DNA of 64,000 nt from Eledone cirrhosa. Its lineage: Eukaryota. Of the stretch, positions 22,411-37,900 are shown one piece after another (the stretch's first letter is position 1; each line of letters starts with the position of its first letter). The stretch spans positions 25,730,001-25,794,000 of the forward strand of contig OZ024755.1 of assembly GCA_964016885.1 (NCBI GenBank), in the 5' to 3' direction. Made by a program: the position numbers and the translations under genes. A model generated the notes under the pieces. It was not told the origin of the DNA and ran no database searches. It saw only the letters and a list, made by a program, of their open reading frames with translations.

Positions 22411-22981
22411 ATGTTTTGTTGTGCTGGTTTTAGGAAATCTAGATCAAAGAAGACTTTCCAAGTGAACCCAGCACAGGAAAAGGACTCTGATTCTTCATCT
22501 TGTAAAAAGGATCCAATATTTAAATCCGAGAACGGAGTTGATCCATCAACAGTTGAGAAAGTGGGAGCTGACCTTCAGACAAAGTCAGCCGGTGTAGAAA
22601 GATCAGCAGACACTCCCACTTCTACAGAAACAAACAGCAGGAAAGAGGTTGCACCTTCTCTTCCTCAAGCTGGTGCTGTTGTTACCTCTAAAGAATTTCA
22701 ACAGGACATTGTGACAAAGTCCAGCCAACAGGAACATACCTCCTCACCACCACAACCACAGCCAGTCAAAGAAGTGTGTGTTGCCAGTGAGATATCTAAC
22801 GCTCTTGCTATTGTTGCAGAAGAGAGAGCTCGACTGGACTCTGGTGAAATGTCATCTGAACAAATGGCCAAGTCCATTGATCGTCTTGAGACAGCTGTAT
22901 TGAGCCTGGAGCGTGTAACAACACGTCTGGAGAATGTTGCTAACTCTTCCGGAAAGTATGTCAACTCAAGTAGCTCTGAAG
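22411..22981 (+). CDS. CAP: CAP exon 1a: long N-terminal extension plus RLE oligomerisation motif
   Basis: ATG at 22411 ([14 protein letters not shown]...); [22 protein letters not shown] near the end; donor G|GTAAGA, phase 1; internal Met at 22849. Confidence 0.85.
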
Positions 22982-25900
22982 GTAAGATATTTAAACTTTG
23001 TTGAATTTAACATTTATTTTGTTTTTTCTTCACTATTGGAAACAAAATTCTTTTAATTAGCTACAACCAATAGGGGTGCATGACTTAGGGATTGCGTCGT
23101 TGGACTCATAATCACTGTCATGAGTTTGATTCCTGAATCAGGTGGCATGTAGTATTCTTGAGCAAAACTCTTCACTTCACATTGCTCCAGTTTACTCAGA
23201 TGAAAACAATTGTCAACAGTAATAGCTGGGAGCTAAACCTACAATCGACTGGTATCCTGAACTGGACATCTTATATTCTCAGTTGCTTAACACCAATGAA
23301 ACAGAGGCAGACTTTAACTCTGCAATGGACTGGTGTCTGGTCCAGTGGGGAATTCTGGGCTTGGGACAGACATTAACTCTGCTATGGACTGATGTCCTGT
23401 TTAGTGAGGAGTTCTGGATTTTGGGCATGCTTTAACTCTGGAATAGACTAATGTCCTGTCAAAGGAAGGGCCTTGTACTCTGTCACTTAACATCAATGAA
23501 ACAGGGATAATCTCTCCAGTATAATGAGACTCTGGTTACTACTAGAATCATAGTGGTAACCCTTTCATAACCATAGTCATAATGAAATATGTCCTTCTTA
23601 ATGCCAACCCAAAACACCAACCATGTTGCAGTGATATGTATAAGGAAAGGAGGAGCAACAACAAAAATAGGTTGATTTGTATCATCATCATCATCACCAC
23701 CATTTAATGTCTGCTAGTTTAATGATGTCCATAAATAGAAACATTATGTCCAGTTATAATTACAGGAATTAGTAATTATTGACATAATTAATATCTCTAA
23801 TATATGACATATATACATACACACACATACATATGCACATACAGTACATGGAATATACACATTTTTCCATTGCAAACATATGGTCTATCAGACATACATA
23901 ATCTGTGTCACTCACATACACAATCTGTCAAATGTACACAATCTGTGTCACTCGCATACATATACACAACCTATGTCACATACATTCACACACATATACA
24001 TAATCTGTGTCACCATGCATCACAAAAATATTTGGCTGGAAACATATTTAACTCTTTTTATACCAAACTGCCTGAAGCTGTCTCTAACTCATCATCATCC
24101 CCATTTAACATCCATTTTCCATGCTTGCATGGGTTAGATGAGCCGTCTCGTGAGATAAGCCAGGTCAAATGAACATGTCTTGCTCATATAGAACTGATTT
24201 TGGCTTGGTTCTATGATATAAACTGTCTAAAATTATCTAAACACCTTAGATCATAACTTTTGTAAGAACCTTTGTTTAGTTATACTCCAAACAACTTAAG
24301 CAGAGAGTTAGTTAGTTAAATAAATCCCTCTAAATTCTTGATTATTTTCGAAATTATTTGAAAATCATAGGCAGTGTTTTTTATCATAAATATGGTAATA
24401 AGAGTTAATGTAAGGAATAATAGAAAACTGAAGTAGAATAAAATAACATTGAGGCGAAAAACTTTGAGAACTTTTTTTCTACCTGGTTCTATGGGAAATA
24501 ACTTAAGATACACACAGGAATACAGTGTACCTATTGTAAACCACATACACACAACGATATAGAGTACCTATTGTAAACCAGATACACACAGGGATACAGT
24601 GTACCTATCATAAACCAGATACTCACAGGGATACAGAGTGCCTATTGTAAACCAGATACACACAGGGATACAATGTGCCTATTGTAAACCAGATACATAC
24701 ACACAGATACAGTGTACCTATTGAAAACTAAATCCACACAGTGATACAGTGAACCTAATCTAAAGTGGATACACACATGAATACAGTGTGTTTGTTCTAA
24801 ACAAGCTACACACATGGATACAGTGTGCCTATTGTAAATTTGATACAAAGGGATACAGTGTACCTATTGTAAACCAGATAGACACATAGATACAGTGTAC
24901 CTATTGTAAACCAGATACACACTTGGATACAGTGTACCTATTGTAAATCAGATACACAGGGATACAGTGTGCCTATGGTAAACCAGATACACACTAAGAT
25001 ACAGTGTACCTATTATAAAGCAGGTATACAGAGAGATACAGTGTACCTATTGTAAACTAGATATTCACTGGGTTACATTGTACCTATTGTAAACTAGATA
25101 CACACAGGGATATAGTGCACCTATTGTAAACCAGATATACACAGGGATACATTGTAGCTATTGTAAACCAGATACACTGGGTTACAGTGTACCTATTGTA
25201 AACTAGATACACACAAGGATATAATGCACCTATTGTAAACCAGATATACACAGGGATACATTGTACTTATTGTAAACCAGATACACTGGGTTACAGTGTA
25301 CCTATTGTAAACTAGATACACACAGGGATATAGTGCACCTATTGTAAACCAGATATACACAGGGATACATTGTACTTATTGTAAACCAGATACACTGGGT
25401 TACAGTGTACCTATTGTAAACTAGATACACACAAGGATATAGTGCACCTATTATAAACCAGATATACACAGGGATACATTGTACTTATTGTAAACCAGAT
25501 ACACTGGGTTACAGTGTACCTATTGTAAACTAGATACACACAAGGATATAGTGCACCTATTGTAAACCAGATATACAGAGATATTCAGTGTATTCATTAT
25601 AAACCAGTTACATATGCATAACCAAGTCATTGTACACAACTGTTTATTTTTAGGTGTTGAAGAATAAATTTATTTAGAAATTAGATGATTGTAATATGAC
25701 ATCTGCATGACAAACAATAGTTGCGAGTGTTAGATCATCATCATTATCATTTTATAGAACATTAAAAAAAACTAAACTGAAATAAAATATGTAGTGAGAA
25801 AAGAAATTTATTGACAAGGTTAAAGATGCCACCCAAATAAAGTGAGACGCTTACAAAGCTTTGCTTGGAAATAAGTCATCCTTCTTGTATATAAAGTTAA

Positions 25901-34900: not shown

Positions 34901-37900
34901 ACCATGATGTAGCCACAATACTTAGAAAAATAAGTTCTTCATTTCTCTACCTCTCCCCCCCCTTATCTCCCTCTCTCTCTCTCTCTCATATATATATATA
35001 TTTATATATATATATGTATATATATATATATATATATGATCATCGTTTACCAGCCATTTTTCCATTCTAGCATGGATTAGATGAGTTCTGTAGTGACCAA
35101 TGCCAGGTCAGGAGACCATGTCTCACTCATACAGTATAACCATCTCTCTCTCTCCCATGTATTGTCCCAAAGGTGGGTCCACTCTATTTCGAGTGGGGGG
35201 AGGGGGATTACTTTCCCCTTCATAGCATTTAGACAAGATCTTATATCTAACTTACTCTACAACCTAATATATATTGAGTACTACCTTGATTTGTAGTCTT
35301 GCTAATCTTTGAATCATGAACACACACACACACACACACACACACACACACACACACACACATATATATATATATATATATATATATATATATATATATA
35401 TATATATATATATATATACCATCATCATCATCATATGTATAATCACACACACCATTTTGCTCCACCTTACTTTTCTCTCTTCCACCATCATCCACCTTCA
35501 CATATGTAATATATAGATGTTACCATTAACTATAATACAAGGAAGCTATAAGGCATTGCAGTCATTTTACTTGCTTACTATAACAGCAGCCAAATCACCC
35601 ATTTTGTCTTTAATCCATTCATTTACCTCACATGATATCGAATTTATGGTTTTTTAATATCATTTTTTTCGAACAATATCTTAACATCAGTATGGGTGGC
35701 CAGTTATGGCCGGTTTGAACAGAAAAAGGTGAGAATTCTGGGTGGATACAGTCGGTTTAAATGCTAACGGGTTAATCCTTTCATTACCATATTTCTAATG
35801 AATTAAACTGTCTATGTTTTTTATCCTTTCATTACCATATTTCTAATAAAAAACACTGTCTATGTCTTTAGTCCTTTCATTAGCATATTTTTAAAGAAAG
35901 ACACTACCTATGTCTTTAACCCATCATTACCATATTTCTAATGAAAGACACTACCTATGTCATTAACCCTTTCATTACCATATCTCTAATGAACGACACT
36001 ACCTGTCTTTAACCCATCATTACCATATTTCTAATGAAAGACACTGCCTATGTCTCTAACCCTTTCATTACCATAATTCCTACCAGTGTGTAGGGGGTAG
36101 AAATGTGGTGTGATCTGACTTCACTGGTGTCTTCCAACCTGTGTGGCTGGGTAGCCCTAAATGTTTTAAATTTTATATCGTATCTTGTGTTAAATATTGT
36201 GCATCATAGTTTATCAAATTTATCTATTTTAGAATATTCTTGCCCCTACCTTCATTTTTATATGACTTAGTATGTATAACATTGTTGGCCCAGCCCCACA
36301 TGTATTTTAACCCATATGTTTATAACATTTACTATATTATATATAACATTATTTGTTCAGCCCCATATTTAATGCAAACTCTATGTTTATATTTACTGTA
36401 TTATATATAACATTGTCTGTCTAGCCACATATGTAATGTACCCCCTATGTTTATAATGTTTACTGTATTATATATGCAAGTCCTCATTTCTACTGGTTTC
36501 TAATTTTGGAACAAAGGCCTACAATTTTTGGTGAGAGGAGAAGCTTTATTTGGCTGGTACTTTATTTTAACAATCCTAGAAGAATGAAAAACTAAGTTGA
36601 CCTAAATTTCAAATCAGAATGTACAAAACCAGAACAAACATTGTATAACATTTTATCAAATGCTCTGATTCTGCCAATCCACTGCCATCTAAATAATAAT
36701 AACAATATCTATCAAGGAAATGGAGAAATTATCCAAATATAAAGATCTAGAGATAGAAACAACTCGAATGTGGATGATGAAAACAGAAACAATCCCAATA
36801 ATAATTGTTTCTACTTTTGGCACAAGGCCAACAAATTAACCAGTGTATTACTGGTACTTTATTTTATCGACCCTGTAAGGATGAAAGGCAAAGTTAACCT
36901 CGGTGGGATTTGAACCAATAATAATGTCCTGTGGGAAGAATGATAATACACACAGACAGATACATAACCAAAACCTTATGATTTACAAATATATACAGCA
37001 AACAGAAAATAGTACTACTTGGTACTGCACACATGTATTACATAGAGTACTCTCAATTCAATAGAAATAACACTGCATGTAGCGAAGACACACACAGCTG
37101 TGCACAGTGAAAATGCAGGTGAAATGTCTTATTTGGTTGGTGAAAATTGAATGAAAGTCAATTAATTCTAACACACAAGACTGTTATCTAGGTAATATAT
37201 GATAGTTTGTATATTAAAGTGGCACCAGAATGAGTGTAACACATCAAGTGTCGGGGATTATTATGCAGTACGGGGAACATCAAAGCAAGAAACTATCCGT
37301 TCAAATTCCTAGAGATCACCATTTATAAGTGTAGCCAGTTCCTGTCGTGCACAGTTACAATGTAATAAAAAGGAAAATATTTTACAATAGAAACATAAGT
37401 TAGAATATTACACCAGTGACAACACATAATAAAAAGAATACTGATGAGGAGGAGGATAAAACTATTAATAGTAATTAATGTATTATCTGTTTCTTTGTAG
37501 AAGTCCTTTCACCATTTGTGGTGGCCTATGATGACATTATCAAAGGGTCCCTGGCTAGTTATATTTCACTCTCTACCAAGATCGGTGGCAATGTGAAAAC
37601 ACAGGTGAGTACTGGCAAACATGAATCAGATTTTTTTGTTTTTTTCTTTTACTAGTTCCAGTCATTGTCTCTGGCCATACTAGGGCACTGCTTTATATTT
37701 TTGGTATATAACCACCCTTCGCTTAACTACCATCTTACAGCTGTTATTGTCTTTCTTCTTCTTCAATGCTTTTACTCGATGGTACTGGGGTCATCATAGG
37801 TCAGTGATCCCCGAGGCATCATCATTCGCAGAACCAAACAGATCCACCATTGCCCTCCATCGCTGGCGGTCCCATGACAGGCCCTCCACAGTCATTTGGG

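What the first reader, a model, noticed from the sequence alone, without database searches (positions are those of the whole stretch)
22411..37604. Possible N-terminal switchboard: at least 3 mutually exclusive first exons feeding one phase-1 acceptor
Three ATG exons (22411, 30467, 33028) all end in G|GT phase-1 donors that complete a GAA codon with exon 37501. Two carry distinct lipidation-type starts and only one has the RLE oligomerisation motifs. This coincidence argues against chance and suggests alternative-promoter control of the localisation and oligomeric state of an actin depolymerisation/recycling factor. Function is inference.
Basis: inference. Interest (0 to 1): 0.75.

Follow-up and report, generated by a model that had tools for sequence, protein, structure and literature searches.

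The report
Swappable N-termini on octopus CAP
The single gene for the actin-recycling protein CAP in this octopus-like genome has three candidate first coding exons that fit one shared second exon, and comparison with other animals shows that the first is used and the third is conserved, so one gene likely makes membrane-anchored or soluble, clustering or non-clustering versions of the protein.

Summary
The geometry is right: three ATG exons (22411, 30467, 33028) end in phase-1 donors and give open CAP/Srv2 proteins of 623, 465 and 566 aa with exon 37501. The shared GAA codon is automatic, not evidence. E1a (MFCC start, RLE motifs) is joined to exon 2 in relatives' proteins. E1c (MGTCVS start, no RLE) is conserved from start to donor in unnamed proteins at about 50% identity, but only unspliced. 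E1b has only a consensus donor. No spliced read was seen for E1b or E1c; promoters are untested. Annotated isoforms of Tigriopus and Artemia swap N-termini at the same residue, amphioxus one residue later, so this is a widespread invertebrate arrangement. Toxoplasma longCAP/shortCAP and OD-less fly CAP are precedents; eight searches found no paper on the whole pattern. New variant of a known kind; interest 0.45.

The parts
22411..22981 (+). E1a: long first coding exon, 190 codons plus 1 nt; MFCC start, low-complexity extension, oligomerisation domain; phase-1 donor
   Evidence: Pfam CAP_N-CM 18.8 bits against a cut-off of 19; joined to exon 2 in Octopus bimaculoides, Argonauta and cuttlefish-like proteins
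22411..22433 (+). Codons of the MFCC start that also read as a pyrimidine tract plus AG; candidate internal acceptor with first exon base 22434 (phase 2)
   Evidence: acceptor score at the 97th percentile of 2019 AGs; three cuttlefish-like proteins (P0047, P0049, P0159) diverge from the MFCC form exactly here, at residues W, R, M, all encodable by codons ending in G
22434..22848 (+). 415 nt without ATG in any frame; coding in the long form, likely 5' leader of the short form
   Evidence: 0 ATG against 6.5 expected by base shuffle (P about 0.001), 29 of 960 background windows ATG-free, but P=0.066 under codon shuffle
22804..22820 (+). Second candidate internal acceptor (first exon base 22820), 29 nt before the short-form ATG
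   Evidence: 99th percentile of 2019 AGs; use not shown
22849..22981 (+). Short canonical CAP N-terminus (MSSEQM...), with RLE motifs at residues 158-160 and 172-174 of E1a (22882-22932)
   Evidence: cuttlefish-like P0048 and Sepia pharaonis P0160 start at the same MSSEQ
30467..30563 (+). E1b: candidate first coding exon, 32 codons, Tyr/Pro/Gln-rich, no lipidation motif, no RLE; perfect consensus donor
   Evidence: donor score 13.0; single copy in the genome; no match among the 196 proteins fetched; unverified
33028..33427 (+). E1c: conserved candidate first coding exon, 133 codons; MGTCVS start (predicted myristoyl-Gly2 plus Cys4), Tyr motifs YETI and YAEV, acidic tail, no RLE
   Evidence: homologues P0042-P0044, E=4e-11, 62 of 123 aligned residues identical, same start and same donor peptide; single copy
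37501..37604 (+). Exon 2: shared phase-1 acceptor exon, start of the helical folded domain
38466..55542 (+). Eleven further shared exons (38466-38543, 39416-39469, 39931-40020, 40876-40958, 41967-42072, 48889-49072, 50187-50359, 51280-51403, 52575-52657, 54344-54487, 55465-55542): HFD, polyproline, WH2, CARP, stop
   Evidence: all AG/GT flanked and one open frame; CAP_N and CAP_C match only this locus in G000

Best explanation
This is the single CAP/Srv2 gene of an octopod, and its phase-1 intron just before the helical folded domain likely serves as a switch point that puts different N-termini on one shared actin-binding body. E1a gives two products: a long form whose MFCC start is predicted to be palmitoylated and which keeps the RLE oligomerisation domain, and the canonical soluble short form from ATG 22849, likely made when upstream leader exons splice into 22434 or 22820 (removing the first ATG) or by leaky scanning. 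E1c likely gives a form predicted to be myristoylated and palmitoylated, lacking the oligomerisation domain and carrying two conserved tyrosine motifs; it would be a membrane-tethered dimer (through the C-terminal dimerisation motif) with weaker pointed-end depolymerisation in solution but intact nucleotide exchange. E1b is about even odds. Shown: exon geometry, open frames, E1a joined to exon 2 in relatives, E1c coding constraint. Inferred: E1c splicing, route to the short form, lipidation, oligomeric state, tissue control.
For: One CAP locus in G000; open frames. E1a joined to exon 2 in P0002, P0004, P0154, P0157. Long Cys-Cys-type starts with RLE in 30 of 164 anchored CAP proteins from 16 named genera of molluscs, crustaceans and insects (rows not independent). 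Short forms from the internal Met in cuttlefish, Biomphalaria, Pomacea, Babylonia, Tigriopus, Artemia. E1c homologue keeps start, donor peptide, a 12-residue identical run and six frame-keeping gaps; neutral simulation keeps open frame plus MGTC plus GT in 0.1-0.2% of runs at 48-53% identity. RLE-less MG-start isoforms annotated in Artemia (isoform X2) and Tigriopus (isoform X2) diverge from the RLE isoforms of the same species at the same junction residue; amphioxus isoform X7 one residue later. Monomeric HFD needs >20-fold more protein than oligomeric CAP, and forced dimers recover much activity (PMC6876575, passages). Toxoplasma longCAP needs its two N-terminal Cys for apical localisation (PMC6785269, passages).
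Against: No protein or contig shows E1c or E1b joined to exon 2: the three E1c homologues are unspliced read-through ORFs from an unnamed source, and none of the 11 cuttlefish-cluster members listed begins with E1c or E1b. The homologue was found in an ORF database, so its open frame is partly ascertainment. E1c has no sequence similarity to the crustacean MG-type N-termini (best E 0.87-2.8), so the parallel may be convergent. E1c has a weak -3 base (T) and an out-of-frame ATG at 33015. The AUG-free stretch is not significant under codon shuffling (P=0.066), and 11 of 20 long forms from other taxa do have Met in the extension. O. bimaculoides has MFSCFSF rather than MFCC at the equivalent place.
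Confidence: 0.7

Rival explanations
1. Only E1a feeds exon 2. E1c is a real coding exon of some other transcript (nested gene, or joined elsewhere) or a decaying relic, and E1b is chance.
For: All E1c homologues are unspliced. Chance candidates of at least 30 aa occur about 0.5 times per intron of this size. All full-length cephalopod CAP proteins retrieved start in E1a, apart from P0005, which begins seven residues before the junction.
Against: E1c is single copy, ends in a conserved donor of exactly the phase exon 2 needs, and mirrors RLE-less MG isoforms annotated at the same junction in two crustaceans.
Confidence: 0.17
2. The N-termini are real but chosen by alternative splicing from shared upstream non-coding leader exons, not by separate promoters; they are first coding exons, not first exons.
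For: E1a has two good internal acceptors and cuttlefish-like proteins diverge at one of them in three different ways. A weaker acceptor (96th percentile) lies 30 nt before the E1c ATG and one (98th) 224 nt before the E1b ATG.
Against: The MFCC ATG lies upstream of both internal acceptors, so the long form needs a start site or acceptor further 5'. No leader exon could be located. Acceptors at the 96th-98th percentile are common (about 2019 AGs scored).
Confidence: 0.3
3. All three exons are used, each from its own promoter, exactly, with E1b giving a non-lipidated, RLE-less form with a Tyr/Pro/Gln-rich tail.
For: E1b donor is the full consensus; such a candidate occurs once in 400 kb at phase 1 and that one looks like a real gene start. 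E1b is single-copy DNA with A at -3 and no good in-frame acceptor.
Against: No homologue among 196 fetched proteins; the peptide arises from an 18-bp tandem repeat; thresholds were chosen after the fact.
Confidence: 0.3

Closest known systems
Toxoplasma gondii longCAP / shortCAP (PMC6785269, passages read)
   Same: One CAP gene gives a long form with two N-terminal Cys that directs membrane localisation and a short cytosolic form from an internal Met; E1a has the same two-start layout.
   Different: Toxoplasma uses alternative translation initiation and the paper calls it restricted to Toxoplasmatinae; here splicing into internal acceptors is a likely extra route, the extension is 146 aa, and further exons drop the oligomerisation domain.
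Drosophila capulet RA and RB isoforms (bioRxiv 10.1101/2025.09.12.675872 and PMC2516187, passages read)
   Same: A natural 424-aa CAP that lacks the N-terminal multimerisation sequence works in vivo, beside a longer RB isoform.
   Different: The fly short form starts at the HFD itself; the octopod RLE-less forms would carry new N-termini. The preprint says fly CAP lacks the multimerisation sequence, whereas long isoforms of other dipterans in my set (Anopheles, Haematobia, Phlebotomus) carry RLE motifs; the fly RB sequence itself was not examined.
Annotated CAP isoform sets of Tigriopus californicus, Artemia franciscana and Branchiostoma lanceolatum (database records)
   Same: Long Cys-Cys plus RLE, short RLE, and RLE-less (MG-start in the crustaceans, MACFRC in amphioxus) N-termini joined at the same junction before the HFD; 3 of 4 MG-type rows carry a YxxV/L motif.
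   Different: No sequence similarity to E1c; these are automatic annotations with no functional study found.
Canonical CAP/Srv2 (mouse CAP1/CAP2, yeast Srv2; PMC7543520 section 5, PMC6876575 passages)
   Same: OD, HFD, polyproline, WH2, CARP order; OD within the first about 40 residues.
   Different: Vertebrates and C. elegans diversify by two genes; here one gene would diversify by N-terminal exon choice.

Membership tests
CAP/Srv2 family | Helical folded domain (Pfam CAP_N, PF21938) | tested here: met
   three exons over the cut-off at this locus only; exon 2 matches profile positions 1-26 below the whole-protein cut-off
CAP/Srv2 family | C-terminal CARP domain (PF08603) | tested here: met
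   66.8 bits against cut-off 23.8
CAP/Srv2 family | Polyproline P1 and WH2 region between HFD and CARP | tested here: met
   read from exons 48889-49072 and 50187-50359 and matching relatives; WH2 label is from alignment to named CAPs and recall, no profile hit
CAP/Srv2 family | N-terminal oligomerisation domain with RLE motifs | tested here: met
   two RLE motifs in E1a only; PF01213 18.8 bits, just under the cut-off of 19; absent from E1b and E1c products
Alternative first exons under separate promoters | Each exon is spliced to the shared exon | tested here: inconclusive
   E1a yes in relatives; E1b and E1c not seen
Alternative first exons under separate promoters | Own transcription start site at each exon | not testable with these tools
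   only contigs were available, which cannot show RNA starts
Alternative first exons under separate promoters | Mutually exclusive: no strong in-frame acceptor that lets E1a splice into E1b or E1c | tested here: met
   phase-1 AGs inside the open frames have no good pyrimidine tract
N-myristoylated / S-palmitoylated N-termini | Gly2 with Ser6 (E1c); N-terminal Cys pair beside a basic patch (E1a); motifs recalled | tested here: met
   MGTCVS identical in P0042-44; Cys pair conserved in 30 of 164 rows
N-myristoylated / S-palmitoylated N-termini | Covalent acylation and membrane localisation | not testable with these tools
   no experiment; analogy to PMC6785269 only

The most novel reading that the evidence does not exclude
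The intron before the HFD is an ancient switch point, shared by molluscs, arthropods and amphioxus, through which single-CAP invertebrates build a two-by-two set of products (lipid-anchored or soluble; oligomeric or dimeric), including an undescribed myristoylated, tyrosine-motif, OD-less CAP that couples tyrosine-kinase signalling at membranes to actin monomer recharging; in coleoids the palmitoylation codons double as a splice acceptor, so one splicing choice removes the anchor.
Probability: 0.35. Interest if true: 0.65.

Novelty: new variant of a known kind. Interest (0 to 1): 0.45.

Why it matters
CAP biochemistry rests on one oligomeric, soluble architecture, and a review states that most invertebrates have only one CAP (PMC7543520). 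If N-terminal exon choice sets anchor and valency, then natural isoforms test directly what oligomerisation and membrane tethering do for pointed-end depolymerisation against nucleotide exchange, and results from invertebrate rescue constructs (for example the OD-less fly RA form) depend on which isoform was used. Alternative first exons with lipidation switches are common in animals, and both single elements have precedents, so the surprise is moderate.

Tried and rejected
Transcript evidence: no RNA holder was listed for the E1a region (four runs of unrecorded kind, one study). Contigs laid on 30100-33600 gave no spliced joint or exon-2 loose end among the rows shown (many rows were cut). 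X1, X2, X4 (one sample) run through intron and E1b like DNA; X3 covers only repeats there, with no cover on E1b or most of E1c, but the three DNA-like runs also have a hole over the start of E1c, so lack of cover says nothing. No contigs were laid across the junction with exon 2, so splicing in this species stays open. Homologue search with E1a alone found nothing among 2985 candidates although relatives exist, which shows how weak negative searches are here. ESM Atlas gave no hit for the E1c homologue. Pfam gave nothing for E1b or E1c. E1b (32 aa) was too short for the large protein search. Upstream exons matching the alternative N-termini of O. bimaculoides, Argonauta P0021 or cuttlefish P0049 were not found in window 1-37600. 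The GAA coincidence was rejected as evidence. Another MG-start candidate at 3643-3724 was rejected: weak donor (6.0) and similar sequence recurs near 26220 and 28810. Homology of E1c to crustacean MG-type N-termini was not supported. The C. elegans CAS-1 paper was not held, so nematode isoforms were not checked. Earlier scan notes: none near or by words. No structure or complex prediction was run.
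Full report
Identity. The window holds a complete gene for adenylyl cyclase-associated protein (CAP/Srv2). Pfam matches CAP_N-CM in the exon at 22411 (18.8 bits, cut-off 19), CAP_N in exons 37501 and 39931, and CAP_C at 54344. In the own genome G000 both CAP_N and CAP_C match only this locus. The closest named proteins are from Octopus bimaculoides (71% over exon 50187) and Argonauta hians (68%), so the animal is most likely an octopod. Twelve shared exons from 37501 to 55542 have AG/GT ends and one open frame (two earlier scripts had wrong boundaries and were corrected).

Observation. E1a (22411-22981), E1b (30467-30563) and E1c (33028-33427) begin with ATG, end in phase-1 donors (scores 10.5, 13.0, 9.0 on a generic matrix, against 5.2-13.0 for the gene's 11 shared donors), form GAA with exon 2 and give 623, 465 and 566 aa. 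The GAA is automatic for any phase-1 donor with the consensus G. In 400 kb of flanking genome, both strands, phase-1 candidates number 15 (30 aa or more, donor 9 or more; 0.54 per 14.5-kb intron), 2 (130 aa or more; 0.07) and 1 (donor 12 or more; 0.04). So geometry alone is weak for a short exon, moderate for E1c, and moderate but post hoc for E1b.

E1a is used. O. bimaculoides P0002, Argonauta P0004 and unnamed cuttlefish-like P0154 and P0157 carry the E1a sequence joined to exon 2 at the same residue; P0155, P0156 and Pomacea P0029-P0033 are unspliced read-throughs showing one continuous exon from the Cys-Cys start to the donor. Of 196 proteins fetched, 172 had the HFD motif used as anchor and 164 could be placed (8 dropped); 30 of 164 are long forms with an N-terminal Cys pair and RLE-type motifs, from 16 named genera of molluscs, crustaceans and insects plus unnamed rows (rows are not independent). 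O. bimaculoides has one Cys at this place.

The canonical short CAP starts inside E1a at ATG 22849 (MSSEQM); P0048 and Sepia pharaonis P0160 start there, and 62 of 164 rows are such short RLE forms. Between 22414 and 22848 there is no ATG in any frame: expected 6.5 by base shuffle (P about 0.001), 29 of 960 background windows are ATG-free, but P is 0.066 under codon shuffle, and 11 of 20 long forms checked from other taxa do have Met there. Two acceptor-like sites lie in E1a: 22820 (99th percentile of 2019 AGs) and 22434 (97th), the latter formed by the MFCC codons themselves. Three cuttlefish-like proteins diverge from the MFCC form exactly at that point with W, R or M, each encodable by a G-ending codon as a phase-2 junction requires. 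Inference: splicing from upstream leader exons removes the Cys-Cys start and leaves 22849 as first AUG. The leaders were not located.

E1c is a constrained coding exon. A search of 1.84 billion representatives gave one hit, P0042 (E=4e-11), with two cluster mates, all unnamed Logan proteins. They share the start MGTCVS, a 12-residue identical run around YYETI, and the end DYAEV followed by the same read-through residues across the donor; 62 of 123 aligned residues are identical, with six gaps. Neutral simulation at 48-53% identity keeps open frame, MGTC and GT together in 0.1-0.2% of 20000 runs; the open frame is partly ascertained by the ORF database. E1c is single copy. All three homologues are unspliced, and none of the 11 cuttlefish-cluster members listed starts with E1c. 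Joining to exon 2 is therefore inferred, at about 0.75.

E1b has a perfect donor and is single copy, but no homologue among the 196 proteins, and its peptide comes partly from an 18-bp repeat. About even odds.

The same switch point elsewhere. Annotated isoforms of Tigriopus (six rows) and Artemia (five rows) diverge at the residue that aligns with the octopod junction; Branchiostoma (six rows) one residue later. Both crustaceans have long Cys-Cys plus RLE, short RLE, and RLE-less MG-start forms; Sida has an MG form too. Four of 164 rows are MG without RLE, 3 of them with a YxxV/L motif; 2 are Cys-rich without RLE; 27 start at the HFD itself. E1c has no sequence similarity to these, so they support the design, not homology. 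These are automatic annotations.

Transcripts of this species. Four runs of one study hold the E1a region, none on record as RNA. Contigs laid on 30100-33600 showed no spliced joint in the rows displayed. This is uninformative and is not counted either way.

Mechanism. The OD is the first about 40 residues, is required for oligomerisation and raises activity; CARP has its own dimerisation motif (PMC7543520, section 5 part 1 and passages). Monomeric HFD needs over 20-fold more protein for pointed-end depolymerisation, and an artificial dimer works at much lower concentration (PMC6876575, passages). Hence E1a-long would be a membrane-tethered oligomer, E1a-short the soluble oligomer, E1c a membrane-tethered dimer with tyrosine docking sites, E1b a soluble dimer. 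The lipidation and tyrosine-motif readings rest on recalled consensus motifs and are untested.

Known and new. Toxoplasma makes a Cys-dependent apical longCAP and a cytosolic shortCAP from two starts (PMC6785269, passages). Fly CAP is described as lacking the multimerisation sequence, with RA and longer RB isoforms (bioRxiv 10.1101/2025.09.12.675872, passages; PMC2516187, passages). Shrimp CAP1 shows exon skipping under heat stress (PMC10379218, passages). PMC10638096 and PMC13733786, passages only, added nothing on isoforms. The 2020 review has no occurrence of palmitoyl, myristoyl or splic. Eight searches of the open library (listings only, except the papers named) showed no paper on N-terminal exon switching of invertebrate CAP; subscription papers, including the C. 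elegans CAS-1 paper, were not seen, and no supplements were read.

Verdict. Observation partly confirmed, interpretation partly supported. The finding is a real but not unique arrangement: a new variant of a known kind, with E1c the most interesting and testable part. Interest 0.45.

Noticed in passing
window 22882-22932: The octopod oligomerisation domain has one extra heptad between the two RLE motifs compared with cuttlefish-like and gastropod sequences (also in P0002, P0004).
   Followed up: no
window 24506-25612 and 30601-31004: The same 37-bp satellite lies in opposite orientations on either side of E1b; in an E1a transcript it could pair and loop out E1b. It is very abundant in the genome. 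Speculative.
   Followed up: no
proteins P0002, P0003: Both Octopus bimaculoides CAP models lack the polyproline/WH2 exon that Argonauta and this window have; probably an assembly or annotation fault.
   Followed up: no
protein P0005 (unnamed, 436 aa): A cephalopod-like CAP that begins seven residues before the junction with no RLE; either a further RLE-less isoform or a truncated contig.
   Followed up: no
proteins P0096, P0101, P0134, P0150, P0180-P0185: Dipteran CAPs come as about 420-430-aa forms without RLE and as long forms with RLE motifs and Cys-Cys or MG starts, which bears on the statement that fly CAP lacks the multimerisation sequence.
   Followed up: partly
L026, about 3710-4010, minus strand: A 100-codon ATG exon with a hydrophobic start and a consensus donor, probably the first exon of a neighbouring membrane-protein gene.
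   Followed up: no
window 51779-52300, 53084-53662, 57060-57460: Decayed transposase-like frames in CAP introns and downstream (mariner/Tc1-like by recall).
   Followed up: no
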